A DNA stretch of 64,000 bases from Escherichia coli (lineage in GTDB: Bacteria; Pseudomonadota; Gammaproteobacteria; Enterobacterales; Enterobacteriaceae), in assembly GCF_017348835.2 (NCBI RefSeq), contig NZ_CP071375.1; one strand, given 5' to 3'. How positions within the stretch are numbered: position 1 is the first letter of the stretch; the number at the start of each line of letters is the position of its first letter. Made by a program: the position numbers and the translations under genes. Below are positions 426-51,335 of the stretch, in pieces. The notes beneath the pieces were generated by a model. It did no database searches and was not told where the DNA came from. It saw only the letters and a program-made list of their open reading frames with translations.

Positions 426-2591
426 ATGGCAGAACAGGCAGCGGCGGACCTGTTTGGTGCGTTGCCGGAACCGTCAGGTCTGGTTAAAGCCGCAGTAGCT
501 GCTGCGCAGGCTGCCGCTGCAGCAGCAGGGATCCCGGATATGGCTGGTGCAGTTCAGGATGCGGCGGCGTCGATTGCTGCCGGTGGACCGGGGGCGCATA
601 ACGTCACAGTAAGTGGTAGTGCGGTGCCGCCGCAGCTGCTTTTGTTTGCAGGCATGAATGGTTCGGAAGGGCTTGGAAACCTGTTTTCCTACACAGTACA
701 GCTTAAAACCCCGGATACCCTGAACCTCGGATATGTCTCCCCCGCAGCCAACCTGCCGCTCAAGCCGATGGTGGGCAAAGACCTGTGCGTCAGTATCGAA
801 CTGGACGGCGGCGGCAAACGGCATATCAGCGGGCTGGTGACAGCGGCGCGGGTGGTGGGCTATGAGGGCCGCTCGGTAACGTATGAATTACGCCTTGAGC
901 CGTGGCTGAAACTGCTGACCCATACCAGCGACTACAAAGCGTTCCAGAATAAAACCGTGGTGGATATTCTCGATGAAGTACTGGATGAATATTCCTTTCC
1001 GGTGGAAAAGCGGCTGGTGGAAAATTATCCACCCCGCGCCTGGCAGGTGCAGTATGGTGAAACCGACTTCGATTTCATCCAGCGCCTGATGCAGGAATGG
1101 GGGATTTACTGGTGGTTTGAGCACAGCGAGAACAGCCACACGCTGGTGCTGGCGGATGCCATCAATGGTCATAAAGCGTGCCCTGACTCGCCGCTGGTGG
1201 AGTGGCACCAGGAAGGGCTGAAACTGGACAAGGAATTTATCCACACCATTACGGCCAGTGAGAGGCTGCGTACTGGAAAGTGGGTGATGGACGATTTTGA
1301 TTTTATGAAGCCTCGTTCGCTGCTTAAAAGTACCGTGGCTAGTCCGCGTGATACCGGTCATGCTGAATACGAGCATTATGAATGGCCTGGTGATTACTTC
1401 ACTACGGGCGAAGGCGAGATGCTGACGCGCATTCGTATGGAAGCGCAGCGCAGCCCCGGCAGCCGGGCACATGGGGCAGGTCATATCCGCACCCTCATGA
1501 CGGGTTACACCTTTACGCTGATGAATCATCCAACGGCAGAGGTCAACCAGGAATACCTACTGGTACAGACCACGCTGTTTTTACGGGATAATGCGCAGCA
1601 CAGCGGTCAGGAGCAGCATTTTACCTATGTCACCACGTTTGAACTGCACCCCACCAGCGAAGTTTACCGCCCACAGCGAACCCTAAGCAAACCCCACACC
1701 AAAGGCCCGCAGAGCGCCATCGTCACCGGCCCGGCAGGGCAGGAAATCTGGACGGATAAATATGGCCGGGTGAAGGTGCAGTTTGGCTGGGACCGTTACC
1801 TGTACGATGCGGAACAGCCGTACACGCCGGTGGCCGCCATCACGGGGCGCGGAGAGAGCCGGAAAATCTGGTATTACCACACGGACCTGACGGGCACGGT
1901 ACAGGAGGTGACCGCGCCGGACGGGACGCTGGTGTGGGCGGGCTATCAGGCGGGATTTGGTGAAAACCGGGGCGACATCAGCAACAGCGGGGCGTACTTT
2001 GAGCAGCCGCTGCGGCTGCCGGGGCAGTATTATGATGAAGAGACGGGGCTGCACTATAATCTGTTCAGATATTATGCGCCGGAGTGCGGGAGGTTTATCA
2101 GTCAGGATCCGATTTCGATCCGTGGGGGGCTGAATCTTTACCGGTATGCGCCTAATCCGCTGAGATGGATTGATCCGCTTGGATTAGACTGGAATTATCA
2201 TTTAACAGATAGTGATGGTAAGGTTTATTATCATGGACGTGCAAGTGATAATGCGTCAATGGAAGATGTTGCCCGTCGTCACAGCAATACAACAGGAGCT
2301 GATAAGGCAAGATTTGGAGAAACAGATACCATGACACGAATAACTGAGCCGGGTACGCCAAAATTAACAGCACAAGGTGTGGAAGGTATTGCCATAGGTG
2401 ATAATACTATCGGGCGAAGAGCTGATAACGGTAATAGGGGTCGGGGTAATAATATTCGGGGTGTTAATCCCAATGCAACCAATGCTACTGAAAAACTAAA
2501 TGCGGGTAAAGAATTTTTAAATGGACGAATACCAAGTGAAATGACTGGTGAAACATTGACAGGTAAGGAGTATTTTGAATCAAAATGTTAA
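426..2591 (+). CDS. Chimeric VgrG N-terminal domain fused in frame to Rhs core C-terminus plus C-terminal toxin tip (CT1)
   Basis: 721-aa ORF. Residues ~70-455 carry VgrG motifs ([61 protein letters not shown]). From nt ~1800 the sequence becomes Rhs core ([21 protein letters not shown] ... PxxxxDPLGL, motif at 2172-2186), followed by a ~135-aa AT-rich unique tip. The true start may lie downstream of 426. Confidence 0.7.
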
Positions 2592-3463: not shown

Positions 3464-3557
3464 TTAATTATTTTATAAATTTTTAATCGAGGGACGGATG
3501 GAAATCAATGCCGGATCCCCACCAGTACTAACAGGCGAAAATCCGGGAGAACTGATC

Positions 3558-4020
3558 TTACGGTTGAATAAGATCGTCAATAAACACCGCACCGTCAACG
3601 GTACGCAACCAGCGTGGCGCTTTCAGTTTTGCCGCAAAGAACCAGACCAGTTCACAAAGCAGCCCCGTCAGGGGTTGTTCCATTTTAGATCCCTGCGCCT
3701 GTTCCGTCAGGAGCTGGAGTAATACCTCGCAATATTCACACAATTGCTCAGGATCCAGGTCAAAGTGCGGAAATGAGGCAGGCAGGTCGTCGAGTGTCAG
3801 GCTGTCTACCAGATGGGGTGGAATAGGATCGTTCAGCGTGGGAGACAGAATGGCGATACAGGCGCGAAGTCGTCCGAACAACGCCATTTTCAGCGCCGGA
3901 TCGTGACACTCTATAAGGGTTCAGCGAAGCGATCGCAGTGATCGGCCAGGTCTGTGAAATCGGTGGCAGAACTGAAAGGAATGGACAATAAATCATAATC
4001 AGGGGTGAGGACTGTAGCCA
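3558..4020 (-). pseudogene. Hypothetical gene of unknown function, apparently frameshifted
   Basis: ATG at 4020 preceded by a GGAGG Shine-Dalgarno; 36 codons then stop at 3910-3912. A second frame continues as the 109-aa ORF 3558..3887. No family recognised. Confidence 0.3.
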
Positions 4021-4097
4021 TAAGGCAACCTCCGATAAGTAGGCGTTAAAACCACCACCGAAGAGACCAATCTTACGGGTGGTGGAACCGGGCGGAG

Positions 4098-6932
4098 TTG
4101 GTCTTACCGGCCTTATCGGATACCGGCGCATCTTTCGATGCCACCGCCCGGCCCACCATTGAGGTACAGCCGTGCGTGCAACACAAAAAAGACGCTGGCG
4201 CGTCATGTGTCGCCGATAAGACTTATTCAGGAGACCAATCCCGACGCCTGATTTTGCAGACGCGGCATAACGATACAACGATCGCGAAATGGCGACAAAC
4301 CCCTTTCCCGGAAGGCGGCTCGCAAAATCAGAAATATCACAGGGAAAGACAGAGCGCCGCAACGCGGCGGGATGTACCGCTTCACGTACAACGAAAACCA
4401 TTTTCCGGTAGCGGTGGAACTCCCCGGCGAACGCAGGTAACGCTGGAATACGACACCCTGAGCCGGGTGGTGAAAGAGACGGACCCGGCAGGCCGGGTGA
4501 CACAGACGCAGTGGAACGGCAGTTTTGCTGAAATCACGCGCCGGGCACTGGATGACGACCACGTATGGAAGGCGGATTACAACGAACACGGCCAGGTGAT
4601 ACGGGAGACGGACCCGGAAGGGCGCGTCACGCGCTACGGGTATGATGAACAGGGGCTGGCGGTCAGCCGCACGGATGCGCGGGGCGGCGAGGCTGCGCTG
4701 GCGCATGATGCGCGCGGCCAGCTGAGGCGTTACACCGACTGTTCAGGGCGTGCCACGGGTTATGAATACGATGAAGACGGCAACCTGACGGTGGTGACGG
4801 ACGCGGAGGGGAAAACGGTACGTATCCGCTATAACCGTCTGGGACTGCCGGAGACGGTAAATCATCCCGGTAAACAGCAGGACCGTTACACGTGGAACGC
4901 GCTGGGGTTACTGAGCAGCCACCGTCGCATCACAGGCAGTGTGCAGTCCTGGCAGTATACGCCGCGCGGTCTGCTGGCGCTCCACGTAGATGAAGAGAAA
5001 CGGGAGACGCGCTGGCATTATACCGCGGAGGGATGGATTGCCAGTCTGAGCAACGGCAACGGAGCGCTTTACCGGTTCAGTCACGATGCGGACGGACGGC
5101 TGACGGGAGAACAGCGCCCGGACGGTCTGATACGGATGTTTGTGCTGAATGCGGGCGGGTATCCGGTCATCATCCAGACGCAGGGTACAGAAGGCGGGGG
5201 GCGCAATGAACAGCAGGAGCGTGACGCGCTGGGCCGCCTGCTGCGCAGTGACACGCAGCACAGTACACGGACCTTCAGCTACAACCGTCTTGACCAGATA
5301 ACGGAAGTGACGCTCACCCCGACGAAAGAAGGGGAACGGCTGCACCACATGCAGGCGGACACGGTGCGCTTTGCGTATGACCGCAGCGGCTGGCTGACGG
5401 CAGAGCACAGCGTGCACGGCAGCATAAAATATCAGCGTGACGCGCTGGGCAATCCCACCGATATCACGTTGCCGGACGGGCAGCATCTCAGTCATCTTTA
5501 CTACGGCAGCGGACATCTGCTCCAGACGGCACTGGACGGTATCACGGTCAGCGAATATGAGCGTGACAGTCTGCACCGTCAGGTGATGCGCACGCAGGGG
5601 AAACTGGCGACGTTCAGCGGCTACAACGCCGACAACCGGTTAAGCTGGCAGCGCAGTCTGCCAGGTGGCAGCCAGAATCCACAGCAGACCGGTAACCCCC
5701 CGGCGCAGAACGACAGCGTGACGGCGCGGGACTATATCTGGAATGCGGACGGTGAGGTCGGCGGCATCAATGACAAACTGCGCGGTTGCCTGGTGTTCAG
5801 CTATGACCGCAGCGGCTGGCTGACCAGTCGCACGGGTCAGATGTACGACCATGACCATTATTATTACGACAAAGCGGGCAACCTGCTGACGGACGAGTAT
5901 CAGAGCGCGGTGATGGATAACCGCCTGCCGGGCTACGGGCGTGACCGTTACCGCTATAACGAATGGGGCGAACTGACAGAGCGCAGGGACCAGCAACTGG
6001 AGTGGAATGCGCAGGGCCAGTTAACGCGGGTCATCAGCAGCAACAGCGAGACGCGGTATCAGTATGATGCGCTGGGCAGGCGTATCAGCAAGGCGACCAG
6101 CAATCTCCATACCGACCGGGGAGAACGAAGCCGGACAACGTTTGTGTGGGAAGGGGTCCGGCTGTTGCAGGAGACAACGTGGCAGGGAAAGCGGACGTAC
6201 CTGTACGACGCGGAACAGCCGTACACGCCGGTGGCCGCCATCACCGGGCGCGGAGAGAGCCGGAAAATCTGGTATTACCACACGGACCTGACGGGCACGG
6301 TACAGGAGGTGACCGCGGCGGACGGGACGCTGGTGTGGGCGGGCTATCAGGCGGGGTTCGGAGAAAACCGGGGCGACATCAGCAACAGCGGGGCGTATTT
6401 TGAACAGCCGCTGCGGCTGCCGGGGCAGTATTATGATGAAGAGACGGGGCTGCACTATAATCTGTTCAGATATTATGCGCCGGAGTGCGGGAGGTTCGTA
6501 AGCCAGGATCCGATTTCGATCCGGGGTGGTCTGAATCTTTACCGGTATGCGCCGAATCCGATTACTTGGATCGATCCGTGGGGATTGGCAAAGGGGGATT
6601 ATGGTAAAATGCCTACGTTCCCTGGTTGGCAGAAACATCATAATATTCCACAAAATATGGCTACTCATTCGGCAATTGTTGACTCTGGATTTGATATACA
6701 TAATAGTCGTAACATTACAACCTTGCCAAAAACTGGAAGTATAGATACTGCCAGAACAGTGCACAGTGGAATGCACACAGGAGATTATGACAGGATGGTA
6801 AAAAATGCTTTAGATCAAATTGACTCGTTGAATGCTTCCCCTGAGATCAAAAAAATGCATATAGAAGCCTTATCTGATGATATTGGCAATAAATTGAGAA
6901 CAAAACAAATTACGTTAAATGCTGCATGTTGA
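4098..6932 (+). CDS. Orphan rhs fragment (N-terminally truncated core with YD repeats) with toxin tip CT2
   Basis: 944-aa ORF; YD-repeat Rhs core similarity begins near nt 4330 with a frame break just upstream. Core ends at DPWGL (6573-6587), then a ~115-aa tip containing WQKHHNIPQ and a downstream His (HSGMHTGDY), possibly an HNH/AHH-type nuclease. Confidence 0.7.
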   Translation: MVLPALSDTGASFDATARPTIEVQPCVQHKKDAGASCVADKTYSGDQSRRLILQTRHNDTTIAKWRQTPFPEGGSQNQKYHRERQSAATRRDVPLHVQRKPFSGSGGTPRRTQVTLEYDTLSRVVKETDPAGRVTQTQWNGSFAEITRRALDDDHVWKADYNEHGQVIRETDPEGRVTRYGYDEQGLAVSRTDARGGEAALAHDARGQLRRYTDCSGRATGYEYDEDGNLTVVTDAEGKTVRIRYNRLGLPETVNHPGKQQDRYTWNALGLLSSHRRITGSVQSWQYTPRGLLALHVDEEKRETRWHYTAEGWIASLSNGNGALYRFSHDADGRLTGEQRPDGLIRMFVLNAGGYPVIIQTQGTEGGGRNEQQERDALGRLLRSDTQHSTRTFSYNRLDQITEVTLTPTKEGERLHHMQADTVRFAYDRSGWLTAEHSVHGSIKYQRDALGNPTDITLPDGQHLSHLYYGSGHLLQTALDGITVSEYERDSLHRQVMRTQGKLATFSGYNADNRLSWQRSLPGGSQNPQQTGNPPAQNDSVTARDYIWNADGEVGGINDKLRGCLVFSYDRSGWLTSRTGQMYDHDHYYYDKAGNLLTDEYQSAVMDNRLPGYGRDRYRYNEWGELTERRDQQLEWNAQGQLTRVISSNSETRYQYDALGRRISKATSNLHTDRGERSRTTFVWEGVRLLQETTWQGKRTYLYDAEQPYTPVAAITGRGESRKIWYYHTDLTGTVQEVTAADGTLVWAGYQAGFGENRGDISNSGAYFEQPLRLPGQYYDEETGLHYNLFRYYAPECGRFVSQDPISIRGGLNLYRYAPNPITWIDPWGLAKGDYGKMPTFPGWQKHHNIPQNMATHSAIVDSGFDIHNSRNITTLPKTGSIDTARTVHSGMHTGDYDRMVKNALDQIDSLNASPEIKKMHIEALSDDIGNKLRTKQITLNAAC

Positions 6933-6947
6933 ATAACGAGGGAATAT

Positions 6948-7538
6948 ATGATTTATTTTTTATCTGATAAAAAAAATACCTTCGGGTTGTTGCATTATGA
7001 TCATAAAACTTCGATCGACTACACAGTATTTAATGAGGGGGTTAGCATAACAGGAATAGACATTAATATTAAATATACATCAAACAATAAAAATGATTTA
7101 AAACGGCTCGAAAAGTGTAACATTATAGAAACGACAGGTCCGACATTGATAAATAATAAGATTAGACATGTTTTTGAAAAATATGCAAGCAATGCGGTTG
7201 AATTTTTTGATGTAGACATTAACGATGATATAGATTTATCAAGGAAGTTTTGTGCGATTAATTTATTATGGGTCTTACCATGTTGTGATATGGAAAAGAG
7301 TGAATTTACATTAAGTAATTTCGATCTTGCCAATCCTAACTATATGTTTATGTATAAAGTTCTAAAAAATGATATTAATAGAGAGGTGGATATATTTCGG
7401 TGTAAGGAGCAGCATACTGAAATTGTTGTAAGTGAAGGAGTTAAGCAAGCATGTATGGACGCGGGAATTAAAGGATTGCGTTTTTGTACGGCTATTGATT
7501 TAACTCCAAAAAATAGATCTGAGTGTGTATTTATTTAA
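6948..7538 (+). CDS. Putative immunity protein for CT2 (196 aa)
   Basis: AT-rich ORF 15 bp downstream of the CT2 stop, same strand. Confidence 0.5.
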   Translation: MIYFLSDKKNTFGLLHYDHKTSIDYTVFNEGVSITGIDINIKYTSNNKNDLKRLEKCNIIETTGPTLINNKIRHVFEKYASNAVEFFDVDINDDIDLSRKFCAINLLWVLPCCDMEKSEFTLSNFDLANPNYMFMYKVLKNDINREVDIFRCKEQHTEIVVSEGVKQACMDAGIKGLRFCTAIDLTPKNRSECVFI

Positions 7539-7559: not shown

Positions 7560-9656
7560 GGGTATGACGAACAGTTCCTGCCGGAGACGGTCAGCCACCC
7601 CGGTAAACAGCAGGACCGTTACACCTGGAACGCACTGGGGTTACTGAGCAGCCATCGTCGCATCACGGGCAGTGTGCAGTCCTGGCAGTATACGCCGCGC
7701 GGGATGCTGGCGCGCCATACGGATGAAGAGAAACGGGAGACGCGCTGGCAGTACACCCCGGAAGGGCTGGTTGCCAGTCTGAGCAACGGCAACGGAGCGC
7801 TTTACCGGTTCAGTCACGATGCGGACGGACGGCTGACGGGAGAACAGCGCCCGGACGGTCTGATACGGATGTTTGTGCTGAATGCGGGCGGGTATCCGGT
7901 CATCATCCAGACGCAGGGTACAGAAGGCGGGGGGCGCAATGAACAGCAGGAGCGTGACGCGCTGGGCCGCCTGCTGCGCAGTGACACGCAGCACAGTACA
8001 CGGACCTTCAGCTACAACCGTCTTGACCAGATAACGGAAGTGACGCTCACCCCCACGGAAGAAGGGGAACGGCTGCACCACATGCAGGCGGACACGGTGC
8101 GCTTTGCGTATGACCGCAGCGGCTGGCTGACGGCAGAGCACAGCGTGCACGGCAGCATAAAATATCAGCGTGACGCGCTGGGCAATCCCACCGACATCAC
8201 GTTACCGAACGGGCAGCACCTCAGCCATCTTTACTACGGCAGCGGGCATCTGCTCCAGACGGCACTGGACGGTATCACGGTCAGTGAATATGAGCGTGAC
8301 AGTCTGCACCGTCAGGTGATGCGCACGCAGGGGAAACTGGCGACGTTCAGCGGCTACAACGCCGACAACCGGTTAAGCTGGCAGCGCAGCCTGCCAGGTG
8401 GCAGCCAGAACCCACAGCAGGCCGGTAACCCCCCGGCGCAGAAAGACAGCGTGACAGCGCGGGATTATATCTGGAACGCAGACGGTGAAGTCGGCGGCAT
8501 CAATGACAAACTGCGCGGTTGCCTGGTGTTCAGCTATGACCGCAGCGGCTGGCTGACCAGTCGCACGGGTCAGATGTACGACCATGACCATTATTATTAC
8601 GACAAAGCGGGCAATCTGCAGACGGATGAGCATCAGGGAGCGGTGCCGGATAACCGCCTGCCGGGCTACGGGCGTGACCGCTACCGCTATAACGAATGGG
8701 GCGAACTGACAGAGCGCAGGGACCAGCAACTGGAGTGGAATACGCAGGGCCAGTTAACGCGGGTCATCAGCAGCAACAGCGAGACGCGGTATCAGTATGA
8801 TGCGCTGGGCAGGCGTATCAGCAAGGCGACCAGCAATCTCCATACCGACCGGGGAGAACGAAGCCGGACAACGTTTGTGTGGGAAGGGTTCCGGCTGTTG
8901 CAGGAGACAACGTGGCAGGGAAAGCGGACATACCTGTACGACGCGGAACAGCCGTACACGCCGGTGGCGGCCATCACGGGGCGCGGAGAGAGCCAGAAAA
9001 TCTGGTATTACCACACGGACCTGACGGGCACGGTACACGAGGTAACCGCGCCGGACGGGACGCTGGTGTGGGCGGGCTACCAGGCGGGATTTGGCGAAAA
9101 CCGGGGCGACATCAGCAACAGCGGGGCGTACTTTGAGCAGCCGCTGCGACTGCCGGGGCAGTACTTTGACGAAGAAACAGGGCTGCATTACAATCTGTTC
9201 AGGTATTATGCGCCGGAGTGCGGGAGGTTCGTAAGCCAGGATCCGATAGGGTTGCTTGGTGGGCTGAACTTATATGCTTATGCGCCTAATCCGCTGTCAT
9301 GGATCGATCCGTTAGGTTTGACTCCATGTGCAAATGGGGGGAATGCTAAAAAACATGGTGGCACAGGACATAATAATTTTATTGATAATCTTATTGCGGA
9401 TGCTCGCAGTCAGGGTGCTACAAATATCAGGAAAAACCAATGGCAGGTAGATGTTAATGGAAATGTTGTTGGTAAAAATAGACCGGATGTTCAATTTGAT
9501 TTAAATGGTAAACATTATAATATTGAGGTTGATACAACAATAAAAGGCAGCGTTGGTCACCAAAATACTATACCTACACTTGATCCCAACTCAAGAAATA
9601 CATTTTGGCTAATTGATGACTTAGGGAATATTTTAAATGGCCACTCAACCATCTGA
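7560..9656 (+). CDS. Orphan rhs fragment with toxin tip CT3
   Basis: Rhs core similarity starts ~7560 (ORF-track start 7674). DPLGL at 9306-9320, then a ~110-aa tip with RPDVQF ... NIEVDTTIK, possibly a PD-(D/E)xK-like nuclease. Core is near-identical to the next fragment at an offset of 2586 bp. Confidence 0.7.
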   Translation, partial: GYDEQFLPETVSHPGKQQDRYTWNALGLLSSHRRITGSVQSWQYTPRGMLARHTDEEKRETRWQYTPEGLVASLSNGNGALYRFSHDADGRLTGEQRPDGLIRMFVLNAGGYPVIIQTQGTEGGGRNEQQERDALGRLLRSDTQHSTRTFSYNRLDQITEVTLTPTEEGERLHHMQADTVRFAYDRSGWLTAEHSVHGSIKYQRDALGNPTDITLPNGQHLSHLYYGSGHLLQTALDGITVSEYERDSLHRQVMRTQGKLATFSGYNADNRLSWQRSLPGGSQNPQQAGNPPAQKDSVTARDYIWNADGEVGGINDKLRGCLVFSYDRSGWLTSRTGQMYDHDHYYYDKAGNLQTDEHQGAVPDNRLPGYGRDRYRYNEWGELTERRDQQLEWNTQGQLTRVISSNSETRYQYDALGRRISKATSNLHTDRGERSRTTFVWEGFRLLQETTWQGKRTYLYDAEQPYTPVAAITGRGESQKIWYYHTDLTGTVHEVTAPDGTLVWAGYQAGFGENRGDISNSGAYFEQPLRLPGQYFDEETGLHYNLFRYYAPECGRFVSQDPIGLLGGLNLYAYAPNPLSWIDPLGLTPCANGGNAKKHGGTGHNNFIDNLIADARSQGATNIRKNQWQVDVNGNVVGKNRPDVQFDLNGKHYNIEVDTTIKGSVGHQNTIPTLDPNSRNTFWLIDDLGNILNGHSTI

Positions 9657-17704: not shown

Positions 17705-17850
<146 letters not shown>

Positions 17851-26828: not shown

Positions 26829-27716
26829 TCAGGCTGCCAGATCATTATTTCCGATGGAAGCATAATAAGCTTTTTCTGCTTCTGCCGGAGGAATATGGCC
26901 CAGCCTTTCCAGCAATCGTCGATTGTTATACCAGTCCACCCACGTTAGTGTGGCCAGTTCCACTTCTGTCCGGTTTTTCCAGCTCTTACGGTGTATTACC
27001 TCCGCTTTGTAAAGACCATTGATGCTCTCCGCCATCGCGTTGTCATACGAGTCGCCAGTACTCCCTGTTGATGCCAGTAATCCGGCTTCCTTAAGCCGCT
27101 GCGTGTAGGCCAGCGATACATACTGAGAACCTTTATCACTGTGATGGATTGTGCCGGACGGCCGACGGGCCCACAACGCCTGCTCCAGTGCATCCAGCAC
27201 GAATGTTGTTTCCATGGATGATGAGACCTGCCATCCCACGATGTATCCGGCGAACACATCAATGATGAACGCCACATAAACGAAGCCCTGCCATGTGCTT
27301 ACCCAGGTAAAATCAGCCACCCACAACTGGTCTGGACGTTCTGCCACGAACTGACGGTTTACGCGGTCGCATGCGGCAACGGCTTTCCGGCTGACGGTAG
27401 TGCGGACCTTTTTACCCCGGAGAACACCGGCAAGTCCCATAACTGCCATGAGACGTGCCACAGTGCATCTGGCCACTCTGATACCTTCCCGTAACAACTG
27501 ACGCCAGACTTTACGCACACCGTATACCTGGTGATTTTCATCGTATACGCGCTGTATCTCTTTCTTCAGCCAGTCATCGTGCTGCGCACGGGCACTGCGT
27601 TTATCCGGATGATGTCGCTGTTGCTGACAATGGTAATACGTTGACGGGGCAATATGCAGTTCGCTGCATACCGGTCCGACCCCGTACTGCTCACGCAGCT
27701 TATCCAGCAGTGGCAT
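26829..27716 (-). CDS. IS629-like transposase OrfB (DDE catalytic domain)
   Basis: 295 aa; start overlaps the orfA stop, consistent with IS3-type frameshifting. Confidence 0.85.
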   Translation of the reverse strand: MPLLDKLREQYGVGPVCSELHIAPSTYYHCQQQRHHPDKRSARAQHDDWLKKEIQRVYDENHQVYGVRKVWRQLLREGIRVARCTVARLMAVMGLAGVLRGKKVRTTVSRKAVAACDRVNRQFVAERPDQLWVADFTWVSTWQGFVYVAFIIDVFAGYIVGWQVSSSMETTFVLDALEQALWARRPSGTIHHSDKGSQYVSLAYTQRLKEAGLLASTGSTGDSYDNAMAESINGLYKAEVIHRKSWKNRTEVELATLTWVDWYNNRRLLERLGHIPPAEAEKAYYASIGNNDLAA

Positions 27717-28042
27717 TATTTTTTCCAGAGGCGGTCGAACTCCGCCTTCGCAAAATAAGCGGAAGCCTGGCGAAGGATATCGTTACTGCGGCGCAGTTCA
27801 CGATTTTCACGTTCCAGCTCTTTCAGACGCTGACGTTCAGCGGTGGTGAGTCCACCATCACCACTCCCGGTATCCCGCTCATGCTGGCGAACCCAGACAC
27901 GCAGAGTCTCCGGCGTACAGCCAATCTTTGGGGCAATGGAACAAATTGCCGCCCACTGTGAGTCATATTCATCCTGACTTTCCAGAACCATACGAATCGC
28001 CCGCTGACGGACTTCGGGGGAAAAACGAGTATTTTTAGTCAT
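27716..28042 (-). CDS. IS629-like transposase OrfA
   Basis: 108 aa, [26 protein letters not shown]..., helix-turn-helix. Confidence 0.85.
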
Positions 28043-36124: not shown

Positions 36125-36200
36125 GCCGATATAGCTCAGTTGGTAGAGCAGCGCATTCGTAATGCGAAGGTCGTAGGTTCGACTCCTATTATCGGCACCA
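36125..36200 (+). tRNA. thrW: tRNA-Thr (CGU)
   Basis: GCCGATATAGCTCAGTTGGTAGAGCAGCGCATTCGTAATGCGAAGGTCGTAGGTTCGACTCCTATTATCGGCACCA; cloverleaf with CGT anticodon and encoded CCA. Confidence 0.95.
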
Positions 36201-44417: not shown

Positions 44418-45001
44418 TGGCATTCAGAATGAGTGAACAACCACGGACCATAAAAATTTATAATCTGCTGGCCGGAACTAATGAATTTATTGGTGAAGGT
44501 GACGCATATATTCCGCCTCATACAGGTCTGCCAGCAAACAGTACCGATATTGCACCGCCAGATATTCCGGCTGGCTTTGTGGCTGTTTTCAACAGTGATG
44601 AGGCATCGTGGCATCTCGTTGAAGATCATCGGGGAAAAACCGTCTATGACGTGGCTTCCGGCGACGCGTTATTTATTTCTGAACTTGGCTCGTTACCGGA
44701 AAATGTCACCTGGTTATCGCCGGAAGGGGAATATCAGAAGTGGAACGGCACAGCCTGGGTGAAGGATACGGAAGCAGAAAAACTGTTCCGGATCCGGGAG
44801 GCGGAAGAAACAAAAAACAACCTGATGCAGGTAGCCAGTGAGCATATTGCGCCACTTCAGGATGCTGCAGATCTGGAAATCGCAACGGAGGAAGAAAACT
44901 CGTTGCTGGAAGCCTGGAAAAAGTATCGGGTGTTGCTGAACCGTGTTAATACAACAACTGCACCTGATATTGAGTGGCCTACGAACCCTGTCAGGGAGTA
45001 A
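44417..45001 (+). CDS. tfa: Tail fibre assembly protein Tfa
   Basis: 194-aa product; ATG overlaps the stf stop. Confidence 0.85.
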
Positions 45002-45362: not shown

Positions 45363-45689
45363 ATGACTAAAAATACTCGTTTTTCCCCCGAAGTCCGTCA
45401 GCGGGCGATTCGTATGGTTCTGGAAAGTCAGGATGAATATGACTCACAGTGGGCGGCAATTTGTTCCATTGCCCCAAAGATTGGCTGTACGCCGGAGACT
45501 CTGCGTGTCTGGGTTCGCCAGCATGAGCGGGATACCGGGAGTGGTGATGGTGGACTCACCACCGCTGAACGTCAGCGTCTGAAAGAGCTGGAACGTGAAA
45601 ATCGTGAACTGCGCCGCAGTAACGATATCCTTCGCCAGGCTTCCGCTTATTTTGCGAAGGCGGAGTTCGACCGCCTCTGGAAAAAATAA
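45363..45689 (+). CDS. IS629-like transposase OrfA
   Basis: Product identical to the copy at 27716..28042. Confidence 0.85.
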
Positions 45690-46576
45690 TGCCACTGCTG
45701 GATAAGCTGCGTGAGCAGTACGGGGTCGGACCGGTATGCAGCGAACTGCATATTGCCCCGTCAACGTATTACCATTGTCAGCAACAGCGACATCATCCGG
45801 ATAAACGCAGTGCCCGTGCGCAGCACGATGACTGGCTGAAGAAAGAGATACAGCGCGTATACGATGAAAATCACCAGGTATACGGTGTGCGTAAAGTCTG
45901 GCGTCAGTTGTTACGGGAAGGTATCAGAGTGGCCAGATGCACTGTGGCACGTCTCATGGCAGTTATGGGACTTGCCGGTGTTCTCCGGGGTAAAAAGGTC
46001 CGCACTACCGTCAGCCGGAAAGCCGTTGCCGCATGCGACCGCGTAAACCGTCAGTTCGTGGCAGAACGTCCAGACCAGTTGTGGGTGGCTGATTTTACCT
46101 GGGTAAGCACATGGCAGGGCTTCGTTTATGTGGCGTTCATCATTGATGTGTTCGCCGGATACATCGTGGGATGGCAGGTCTCATCATCCATGGAAACAAC
46201 ATTCGTGCTGGATGCACTGGAGCAGGCGTTGTGGGCCCGTCGGCCGTCCGGCACAATCCATCACAGTGATAAAGGTTCTCAGTATGTATCGCTGGCCTAC
46301 ACGCAGCGGCTTAAGGAAGCCGGATTACTGGCATCAACAGGGAGTACTGGCGACTCGTATGACAACGCGATGGCGGAGAGCATCAATGGTCTTTACAAAG
46401 CGGAGGTAATACACCGTAAGAGCTGGAAAAACCGGACAGAAGTGGAACTGGCCACACTAACGTGGGTGGACTGGTATAACAATCGACGATTGCTGGAAAG
46501 GCTGGGCCATATTCCTCCGGCAGAAGCAGAAAAAGCTTATTATGCTTCCATCGGAAATAATGATCTGGCAGCCTGA
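45689..46576 (+). CDS. IS629-like transposase OrfB
   Basis: Product identical to the copy at 26829..27716. Confidence 0.85.
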   Translation: MPLLDKLREQYGVGPVCSELHIAPSTYYHCQQQRHHPDKRSARAQHDDWLKKEIQRVYDENHQVYGVRKVWRQLLREGIRVARCTVARLMAVMGLAGVLRGKKVRTTVSRKAVAACDRVNRQFVAERPDQLWVADFTWVSTWQGFVYVAFIIDVFAGYIVGWQVSSSMETTFVLDALEQALWARRPSGTIHHSDKGSQYVSLAYTQRLKEAGLLASTGSTGDSYDNAMAESINGLYKAEVIHRKSWKNRTEVELATLTWVDWYNNRRLLERLGHIPPAEAEKAYYASIGNNDLAA

Positions 46577-51090: not shown

Positions 51091-51335
51091 TGCATTGAAT
51101 GATAAAATGGCGCAAATACAGCGCCATTTTTACAGGTTAAAAACATTGCTTTTTATATTCTGATTCAGATAGTCAGTGAGTATATAGTGCTACTTCAGGA
51201 TGATGTAGATCCGAAGAACACTACAGAAGAGAGGCATTGTTGCTGGCAAATACAAGAAGTTTCGGGTTTTGTTGTCCCTGAAAACGAAGCCCCGCTATTA
51301 TCGCTGGCGGGGCAGTGCAATTAATTATTGTATGT

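What the first reader, a model, noticed from the sequence alone, without database searches (positions are those of the whole stretch)
3558..4330. Reverse-strand gene of unknown function with a frame break, between immunity gene 1 and the first orphan rhs fragment
A minus-strand ATG at 4020 with a good GGAGG ribosome-binding site opens a 36-codon frame that stops at 3910, and a different frame continues as a 109-aa ORF to 3558. This looks like one ~145-aa gene inactivated by a frameshift. It is opposite in orientation to the rhs cassettes and I cannot assign it to any family. The adjoining 4098-4330 segment immediately 5' of the rhs fragment is not Rhs-like either.
Basis: seen in the sequence. 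Interest (0 to 1): 0.4.

Follow-up and report, generated by a model that had tools for sequence, protein, structure and literature searches.

The report
Broken gene beside antisense-RNA switch relic
The frameshifted reverse-strand gene and the "non-Rhs" DNA next to it are a roughly 770-base leftover of a mobile island's antisense-RNA immunity switch (the kind used by phages P4 and P1) plus the first gene it controls, here killed by a one-base deletion; it is a decaying relic and fairly ordinary.

Summary
Minus-strand ORFs 4021..3911 (36 aa) and 3887..3558 (109 aa) are one 154-aa gene. It is broken by a 1-nt deletion in an A-run (plus strand TT at 3920-3921, TTT in intact copies). Two independent E. 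coli assemblies share the break. Two other strains carry the intact gene at the same rhs position, and one strain carries a further-deleted remnant.

The protein family is real: dN/dS is 0.15-0.31 and the predicted acidic four-helix bundle is confident. It is unnamed and matches nothing in Pfam, PHROGs, NCBIfam, PADLOC or PDB.

The "non-Rhs" segment is not coding. On the minus strand it holds an IsrK/seqA-like leader (4263-4185) and a C4/CI antisense RNA (4163-4075), both above Rfam gathering scores. The two C4 loops are complementary to sites upstream and downstream. The downstream b2 site overlaps the gene's GGAGG. Ten diverged copies show compensatory covariation in all four pairings, and phage P4 has the same layout, with kil in this gene's position.

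The segment from about 3530 to 4298 is therefore a truncated early-operon fragment of a tRNA-associated enterobacterial island, lodged in the rhs array. The protein's function is still unknown; I guess an antirepressor- or Kil-like protein binder.

The parts
4270..4298 (-). Putative sigma-70 promoter of the module (-35 TTGTCG 4298-4293, 17-nt spacer, -10 TATCGT 4275-4270). The predicted transcript start is near G4263.
   Evidence: In alignment A3 of 10 diverged module copies, TTG of the -35, TATnnT of the -10 and the G at the IsrK start are invariant while the spacer varies. The strict consensus scan did not call it, because it matches only 8 of 12 positions. This part is inferred, not shown.
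4185..4263 (-). IsrK / P4 seqA-like leader RNA with an intrinsic terminator (stem 4204-4191 followed by a U-run). It carries the upstream target sites a1 (UUGGUCU, 4238-4232) and b1 (CUUAUCGG, 4220-4213).
   Evidence: Rfam RF01394 isrK scores 65.8 bits against a gathering score of 50. The terminator is found. Complementarity to the C4 loops is shown. The overlapping c4-a1b1 match (4276-4224) scores 40.2 bits, below its gathering score of 46.7.
4075..4163 (-). C4 / P4 CI-type antisense RNA. Its specificity elements are b' UCCGAUAAG (4120-4112, hairpin loop) and a' AGACCAA (4104-4098).
   Evidence: Rfam RF01695 C4 scores 70.6 bits against a gathering score of 45 and matches the full model, positions 1-87. 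Loop-target complementarity is and covariation.
4029..4070 (-). Downstream (seqC-like) target region: a2 UUGGUCU (4070-4064) and b2 CUUAUCGGA (4039-4031). The b2 site overlaps the Shine-Dalgarno GGAGG (4033-4029).
   Evidence: Exact complementarity to a' and b' is shown. GATTGGTCTC occurs only twice in the 64 kb window, at a1 and a2, against 0.19 expected. Across 10 copies, 95.5% of cells are paired, 8 of 16 pairs show double changes, and slid controls give 24-49%.
3558..4021 (-). Pseudogene of a 154-aa acidic protein (called 'ORF154 family' here). The frame is broken by a 1-nt deletion at plus-strand 3920-3921. The reading frames are 4021..3911 (36 aa) and 3887..3558 (109 aa).
   Evidence: Supported. 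NCBI's genome annotation marks the gene 'frameshifted' in PE164 and F2_81. Family evidence is dN/dS 0.15-0.31 and an AlphaFold2 model with pLDDT 87.8 showing a four-helix bundle plus a C-terminal hairpin.
3530..3557 (-). Degenerate first ~30 nt of the next gene of the operon (an SfsB/Ner-like HTH_35 regulator in intact islands). Homology to the island ends here, so this is the truncation point of the relic.
   Evidence: The DNA alignment of the region downstream of the stop codon compares the window and PapRG with L001, L005 and L010. In intact islands the HTH_35/SfsB-like gene overlaps the ORF's stop codon. The similarity is weak and the boundary is approximate.

Best explanation
Window ~3530-4298 (minus strand) is a truncated fragment of the RNA-controlled early operon of a family of tRNA-associated enterobacterial integrative islands, stranded between the main rhs immunity gene and the first orphan rhs. 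The parts in order are a promoter, an IsrK/seqA-like leader with terminator, a C4/CI-type antisense RNA, a second target site, and the first gene (154 aa).

Mechanism, by analogy with P1 c4-icd-ant and P4 PLE-seqA-cI-seqC-kil: the operon transcript is processed to a stable ~89-nt C4 RNA. Its two exposed elements (b' UCCGAUAAG and a' AGACCAA) pair with a1/b1 in the leader and with a2/b2 just ahead of the gene. Because b2 overlaps the GGAGG, pairing blocks translation of the 154-aa gene and, through loss of translation, favours premature termination. The operon therefore stays silent while C4 is present.

In this strain the protein gene is dead from a 1-nt deletion and the rest of the operon (Ner/SfsB-like regulator, HigA-like protein, EFASI RNA, tyrosine recombinase) is missing. 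The fragment is a decaying relic. Only the RNA part is still intact and could be made.

The protein itself is an acidic (pI 4.3) four-helix bundle. It most likely acts by binding another protein, as an antirepressor-, Kil- or Icd-like early function.

Shown here: the RNA family matches, the complementarity and covariation, the frameshift, the homologues and their contexts. Inferred: promoter use, RNA processing, the repression mechanism and the protein's role.
For: - RNA matches: Rfam C4 scores 70.6 bits and isrK 65.8 bits, both above their gathering scores.
- Complementarity: exact 7-9-nt matches link the C4 loops to two upstream and two downstream sites, and b2 overlaps the SD.
- Covariation: in 10 diverged copies, 95.5% and 94% of cells are paired, 8/16 and 9/15 pairs carry compensatory double changes, and slid controls give 23-52%.
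- Linkage: 7 of 7 loci holding a family member have isrK and C4 hits directly upstream of the gene.
- P4 parallel: P4 has the same a1b1/isrK/C4 order, and its kil start codon sits where this gene starts, with a similar N-terminus (MATTLTPSHP against MATVLTPDYD). Published work equates IsrK with seqA and C4 with CI (PMC3632133, PMC4825925, PMC10111431).
- Frameshift and decay: the frameshift site is located. Intact orthologues lie at the same locus, the same break is in two assemblies, and strain A20 holds a further-deleted version.
- Protein family: dN/dS 0.15-0.31, pLDDT 87.8, family median pI 4.4.
- Relic boundaries: homology to other copies stops at ~4284 and ~3574-3592.
- Intact-island context: the gene is followed by an HTH_35/SfsB-like gene, a HigA-like gene and an Integrase_1 gene, with variable cargo upstream of the promoter: DRT plus AbiE, PARIS-like genes, or VgrG/Rhs.
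Against: - No expression data exist for this copy.
- The promoter is a weak consensus match (8/12) that the strict scan missed.
- The c4-a1b1 match is below its gathering score.
- In Gifsy-1 the IsrK RNA activates translation of the downstream ORF instead of repressing it (PMC4825925), so the direction of regulation by the leader is uncertain.
- Intact copies in two strains at the same locus mean the fragment may not be functionless everywhere.
Confidence: 0.85

Rival explanations
1. The fragment is not a dead relic but a retained 'orphan immunity' element. The intact promoter, IsrK leader and C4 RNA are still expressed. Acting in trans, they silence the early operon of any incoming island or satellite that has the same a/b specificity. 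This would make the element a superinfection-exclusion or anti-satellite device kept beside the rhs array.
For: All RNA elements and all four pairings are intact in the window, although the protein gene is broken. C4 and CI RNAs are known to act in trans (P1/P4 literature; PMC3632133 raises the idea of such modules acting as defence against satellites). The many a/b specificity types among copies, including a switch of both a and b between same-locus orthologues (AR_0077 against the window), suggest diversifying pressure on specificity.
Against: Strain A20 has lost C4 and most of the gene by deletion at the same locus. Only 4 of 5426 complete E. coli genomes keep this copy. No second element with matching targets is present in the window or, at megablast level, in PE164. 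There are no expression data.
Confidence: 0.12
2. The gene belongs to the Rhs/T6SS system, for example as an extra immunity protein, adaptor or chaperone for a neighbouring toxin, and its position in the rhs array is functional.
For: Family members lie next to VgrG/Rhs genes in several unrelated loci: the window and three other E. coli aspV islands, E. coli loci near cobU and Trabulsiella.
Against: In about 445 E. coli genomes the homologue sits at thrW next to a DRT reverse transcriptase and AbiE, with no Rhs. In Klebsiella and Scandinavium it sits next to other defence cargo. The constant partner is the C4/IsrK module (7/7 loci), not Rhs. The gene is oriented against the rhs cassettes. It matches no immunity family, whereas the true neighbouring immunity gene matches Imm11.
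Confidence: 0.03
3. The frame break is a sequencing or assembly error in a short homopolymer, and the gene is intact in the living strain.
For: The break is a single base in an A-run (AA against AAA), the commonest kind of long-read error.
Against: The same deletion is present in two complete genomes assembled independently from isolates of different countries. A run of three bases is short for homopolymer error.
Confidence: 0.05

Closest known systems
Satellite phage P4 immunity region (PLE - seqA - cI RNA - seqC - kil/eta)
   Same: The order and strand of the elements are the same: a1b1/isrK-like leader, C4-family RNA, then a second target overlapping the RBS of the first ORF. Both have two loop elements, each with an upstream and a downstream complementary site. 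The first ORF starts at the same place with a similar N-terminus.
   Different: The specificity sequences are entirely different: P4 has b' UCCUGUGAA and a' UUCUCAC. The leader-to-C4 spacing is 22 nt here against ~108 nt in P4. The ORF product is unrelated beyond ~10 residues: P4 Kil is 65 aa, and neither it nor P4 ORF151 matches the family profile. No Ash/Eta long reading frame is open here, because the Ash-frame ORF is only 37 aa and closes at 4073. The P4 genes for the primase, sid, delta and psu are absent.
Phage P1/P7 immI operon (c4 RNA - icd - ant)
   Same: Both have a C4-family antisense RNA cut from the same transcript it regulates. In both, the a'/b' loops pair with a2/b2 at the RBS of the first downstream gene, and different specificities arise by compensating changes (my own knowledge of P1/P7; Rfam C4 match; covariation).
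   Different: The downstream genes are not icd or ant. Here the element is an island fragment, not a plasmid prophage.
Salmonella Gifsy-1 isrK - orf45 - anrP locus
   Same: Both have an IsrK-family leader with its own terminator, followed by a processed RNA and an ORF whose translation the RNAs control. Related DNA in lambdoid and Stx phages precedes antirepressor genes (PMC4825925).
   Different: In Gifsy-1 short IsrK activates translation of orf45-anrP. The downstream proteins (a 45-aa ORF and an antirepressor) are unrelated to the 154-aa protein.

Membership tests
C4 antisense RNA (Rfam RF01695; P1 C4 / P4 CI) | Sequence and structure match to the family covariance model at or above the curated gathering score | tested here: met
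   70.6 bits against a gathering score of 45, model positions 1-87 of 87, at 4163-4075 on the minus strand.
C4 antisense RNA (Rfam RF01695; P1 C4 / P4 CI) | Two exposed elements complementary to target sites both upstream and downstream on the same transcript, with the downstream site at the RBS of the next gene | tested here: met
   The b' and a' elements are exactly complementary to b1/a1 and b2/a2, and b2 overlaps GGAGG. Covariation across 10 copies supports all four pairings.
C4 antisense RNA (Rfam RF01695; P1 C4 / P4 CI) | Stable small RNA processed from the operon transcript that represses downstream expression | not testable with these tools
   This needs Northern or RNA-seq data and reporter assays.
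IsrK / P4 seqA leader RNA (Rfam RF01394) | Match to the covariance model at or above the gathering score, including the 3' intrinsic terminator | tested here: met
   65.8 bits against a gathering score of 50 at 4263-4185. The terminator stem at 4204-4191 plus a T-run was found independently.
c4-a1b1 target element (Rfam RF03163) | Match at or above the gathering score | tested here: not met
   40.2 bits against 46.7 in the window. P4 itself also falls below the threshold at 44.1 bits. Two related loci pass.
P4 Kil / Eta (Phage_ASH, PF10554) | Protein homology to Kil/Eta, or an Ash-domain reading frame running through the RNA region into the ORF | tested here: not met
   The family profile aligns to P4 Kil only over residues 1-19 (probability 5.8%). 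The 154-aa protein has no Pfam hit. In the window the Ash-frame ORF is only 37 aa and stops at 4073. Only the neighbouring 54-aa 'ash family' ORF of the thrW copy gives a sub-threshold Phage_ASH hit.
Rhs-associated immunity proteins | Located directly downstream of and co-oriented with an Rhs C-terminal toxin, and matching an immunity family | tested here: not met
   The gene is in the opposite orientation and matches no immunity family. Most homologues are not next to Rhs.
P4-like satellite prophage | Presence of the alpha primase, sid/delta/psu genes and a P4-type integrase alongside the immunity region | tested here: not met
   None of these genes is present in the window fragment. They are also absent from the fuller islands, which carry SfsB-like, HigA-like and Integrase_1 genes instead.

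The most novel reading that the evidence does not exclude
The 154-aa acidic four-helix-bundle protein defines an uncharacterised family. It is the direct translational target of C4-type immunity RNAs in a widespread class of enterobacterial tRNA islands that carry defence or T6SS cargo immediately upstream of the module's promoter. It occupies the place of P4 Kil or P1 Icd and may be a new kind of host- or helper-directed early effector. The surviving orphan C4 RNA in the rhs array may still act in trans as an immunity decoy against incoming islands of the same a/b specificity.
Probability: 0.15. Interest if true: 0.5.

Novelty: new member of a known kind. Interest (0 to 1): 0.3.

Why it matters
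For this window it clears up an odd spot in the rhs array. The reverse-strand gene and its flank are foreign, mobile-island DNA and not part of the Rhs toxin/immunity system, and the gene is a true pseudogene.

More generally, a conserved but unnamed protein family (229 clusters at 50% identity) is always wired to a C4/IsrK RNA switch and sits at the edge of variable defence or T6SS cargo. That gives the family a testable regulatory context, and it gives genome annotators a reason to call the RNA genes there. The many compensating specificity variants are a neat natural example of immunity-type diversification. None of this changes the known principles of P1/P4-type RNA immunity.

Tried and rejected
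- Protein family libraries: Pfam, PHROGs, NCBIfam and PADLOC scans of both fragments and of intact orthologues gave no family.
- PDB: a profile search of PDB sequences gave no hit at E<=10.
- Phage records: tblastn found one unannotated 1.5-kb record only.
- Apparent fusions: longer proteins found in the exhaustive profile search turned out to be ORF calls running through the C4 RNA region (Phage_ASH plus family), not informative domain fusions.
- P4 ORF151: tested for homology because of its similar length, and rejected.
- Next gene: searching for more of the SfsB-like gene downstream of the stop codon by tblastn gave nothing significant. Only ~30 nt of DNA-level resemblance remains.
- Spacer 4299-4363: looked for an origin between the module and the rhs fragment. 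It is found only in the same four genomes plus a partial match in strain A20. The idea that the module and the first orphan rhs arrived together from an island like L007 therefore remains speculation.
- Promoter: the strict promoter scan did not call the proposed promoter.
- Ash annotation: I first suspected that 'ash family protein' calls were spurious translations of the C4 RNA. The literature shows that P4 eta really is translated through this region (PMC10111431), so I dropped that claim.
Full report
**1. The observation**

The sequence and the ORF list show two minus-strand ORFs in different frames. One runs 4021..3911 (36 aa, ATG) and the other 3887..3558 (109 aa). GGAGG at 4033-4029 lies 7 nt ahead of the first ATG.

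The window is 100% identical over 3464-4400 to E. coli PE164 and 99.9% identical to F2_81. In both genomes NCBI annotates exactly this gene as 'hypothetical protein, frameshifted'.

Two other strains, PapRG-06-5 and AR_0077, carry an uninterrupted 154-codon gene at the same place. In both it lies between the immunity gene of the main Rhs and the first orphan rhs fragment, on the opposite strand. The DNA alignment shows that the only frame-breaking difference is one missing A in GCTGAAAC (plus strand TT at 3920-3921). With that base restored the gene translates to 154 aa, 90% identical to its orthologues. Because two independently assembled genomes share the deletion, I treat it as a real mutation.

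**2. The gene family**

The intact protein has no match in Pfam, PHROGs, NCBIfam, PADLOC or PDB sequences. It is nevertheless a real, conserved family.
- 138 relatives turned up in the 90%-clustered protein database. All are Enterobacteriaceae and all are called 'hypothetical'.
- 229 clusters at 50% identity matched in an exhaustive profile search of 1.8 billion proteins.
- dN/dS is 0.15-0.31 in nine pairwise comparisons.
- The AlphaFold2 model is confident (mean pLDDT 87.8, pTM 0.81) and shows a four-helix bundle with a short C-terminal beta-hairpin.
- The family is acidic, with pI 4.26 for this protein and a family median of 4.4.
- Fold searches returned only generic helical bundles and say nothing about function.

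**3. The 'non-Rhs' flank is an antisense-RNA immunity module**

Rfam finds three elements on the minus strand:
- an IsrK RNA at 4263-4185 (65.8 bits, gathering score 50);
- a C4 antisense RNA at 4163-4075 (70.6 bits, gathering score 45);
- a sub-threshold c4-a1b1 element at 4276-4224.

The IsrK terminator (4204-4191 plus a T-run) is also found by the pattern scan.

The C4 RNA exposes two elements, b' UCCGAUAAG (4120-4112) and a' AGACCAA (4104-4098). Exact complements lie upstream at a1 UUGGUCU (4238-4232) and b1 CUUAUCGG (4220-4213). They also lie downstream at a2 UUGGUCU (4070-4064) and b2 CUUAUCGGA (4039-4031). The b2 site overlaps the GGAGG of the 154-aa gene. GATTGGTCTC occurs only at these two sites in the whole 64 kb.

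I took the ~300 nt upstream of ten family members from E. coli (three loci types), Klebsiella, Scandinavium, Trabulsiella and Citrobacter, without prior knowledge of their RNA content. All ten align over the module. The loops and both sets of targets change together.
- For the downstream sites, 95.5% of cells are paired and 8 of 16 pairs carry compensatory double changes.
- For the upstream sites, 94% of cells are paired and 9 of 15 pairs carry double changes.
- Sliding the partners by 1-3 columns gives only 23-52% pairing, and 0-1 of 500 shuffles reach the observed values.

Rfam independently finds isrK and C4 directly upstream of the gene in 7 of 7 loci scanned. The alignment also shows an invariant TTG-(N3+17)-TATnnT and an invariant G at the IsrK start. 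I read this as the module's promoter (4298-4270). It is a weak consensus match that the strict scan missed.

**4. Comparison with known systems**

Phage P4 (NC_001609) has the same three Rfam elements in the same order. Its sequence shows the same logic with different letters: b' UCCUGUGAA pairs with UUCACAGGA at the RBS, and a' UUCUCAC pairs with GUGAGAA on both sides. The first ATG after P4's CI RNA is the kil start. Its N-terminus, MATTLTPSHP, resembles the family's MATVLTPDYD or MATTLTQTHP, but nothing beyond that aligns. P4 ORF151 is unrelated.

The literature states that IsrK and C4 are the structural homologues of P4 seqA and CI RNA (PMC3632133, PMC4825925). It also states that in P4 the CI RNA causes premature termination by pairing with seqA and seqC, with kil/eta translated through this region (PMC4825925, PMC10111431). 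Related RNA modules in lambdoid and Stx phages precede antirepressor genes.

From my own knowledge of P1/P7, C4 blocks the icd RBS at a2/b2 and thereby blocks ant expression, and immunity types differ by compensating loop and target changes.

The window's gene is thus the Kil/Icd-position gene of such an operon. It is directly repressible by C4 at its RBS. This mechanism is inferred and not shown.

**5. What element it came from and how much is left**

In fuller copies the gene is followed by:
- an SfsB/Ner-like HTH_35 regulator, with start and stop codons overlapping;
- often a HigA-like gene;
- an EFASI RNA;
- an Integrase_1-type tyrosine recombinase.

A P4-type integrase lies next to a tRNA at the island end. 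The DNA upstream of the module's promoter is variable cargo: a DRT (UG5-nitrilase) reverse transcriptase plus AbiE at thrW in ~445 E. coli genomes, DUF4747 and AbiE in Klebsiella, PARIS-like or AAA_13 genes in Scandinavium, and VgrG/PAAR-Rhs sets in E. coli and Trabulsiella.

In the window, homology to all other copies stops at ~4284, with the conserved -35 at 4298-4293. At the other end it stops at ~3574-3592. Only ~30 degenerate bases of the SfsB-like gene remain. Rhs homology starts at 4364. The 65 nt in between occur only in the same few genomes.

The state of the fragment varies among strains at this locus: intact in PapRG-06-5 and AR_0077, frameshifted in PE164, F2_81 and the window, and internally deleted in A20, which has lost C4 and most of the gene. 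That series, together with the rarity of this copy (4 of 5426 complete genomes), argues for a decaying relic and against a maintained function.

Whether the module arrived together with the first orphan rhs from an island like L007, where Rhs and the module are also divergent, is plausible but unsupported by flank homology.

**6. Rivals**

- A still-useful orphan immunity RNA is possible, because all RNA parts are intact. The A20 deletion and the lack of any matching target in the genome speak against it.
- A role in the Rhs system is rejected. The constant partner of the family is the C4 module, not Rhs.
- A sequencing error is unlikely, given two concordant assemblies.

**7. Verdict**

The added result is that the gene and its flank are a ~770-bp fossil of a P4/P1-type RNA-immunity early operon.

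The RNA system is of a well-known kind. The protein family is unnamed and its function is unknown. My best guess is an acidic protein-binding early effector, with low confidence. Interest is modest.

Noticed in passing
L004 (E. coli AR_0077) 6498-6790, compared with window 4007-4300: The orthologue at the same locus in AR_0077 is 90% identical overall. Even so, it has switched both specificity elements of the C4 system (b: CCGAUAAG to CCAACAAG; a: AGACCAA to AUGCCAA). Matching changes occur at all four target sites, so it represents a different 'immunity type' at one chromosomal position.
   Followed up: partly
L022 (E. coli A20) 6838-7048: At the same aspV T6SS island position, A20 holds a further-decayed version of the relic. 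Only the 3' end of the gene (matching window 3511-3617) and the promoter/a1 part (matching 4235-4327) remain. C4 and most of the ORF are deleted.
   Followed up: yes
window 426-2591 (+): This 721-aa ORF reads as a VgrG segment (…[11 protein letters not shown]) joined directly to an Rhs C-terminal end ([17 protein letters not shown]…DPxGL plus toxin tail). It looks like a deletion or recombination fusing vgrG to the end of rhs. NCBI annotates it as a partial Vgr pseudogene plus a short RHS core CDS in PE164.
   Followed up: no
L005 11733-11861, L010 11300-11429, L020 9249-9377: EFASI RNA (RF02957) matches well above the gathering score lie just upstream of the Integrase_1-type recombinase gene, in the fuller islands that carry the C4/ORF154 module.
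   Followed up: no
L021 (phage P4 RefSeq) 8168-8584; L001 8486-8650: Protein annotations overlie the C4/CI RNA. P4 RefSeq still carries a 137-aa 'cI gene product / transcriptional repressor' CDS across the CI RNA. NCBI's genome annotation pipeline also calls short 'ash family protein' ORFs across C4 in many E. coli genomes. The RNA genes themselves are not annotated there.
   Followed up: partly
window 36125-36200 (+): tRNA-Thr(CGT), which is thrW, lies in the window. In ~445 other E. coli genomes thrW is the site of an island carrying a 76%-identical copy of this module with DRT and AbiE cargo. No second C4 or isrK hit exists in this window, so that island is absent or different here.
   Followed up: partly
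window 44760-44958, 51096-51293, 27645-27761, 45644-45760, 17715-17792: Other Rfam hits in the window are two IS009 RNAs, two ALIL (IS3-type frameshift pseudoknot) elements and one naRNA4 (REP-derived). They indicate several IS copies downstream of thrW.
   Followed up: no
L002 12814-12937 (about window 10277 onward); L003 10007-10162: SymE-family type I toxin genes are annotated on the opposite strand between orphan rhs cassettes in the related genomes.
   Followed up: no
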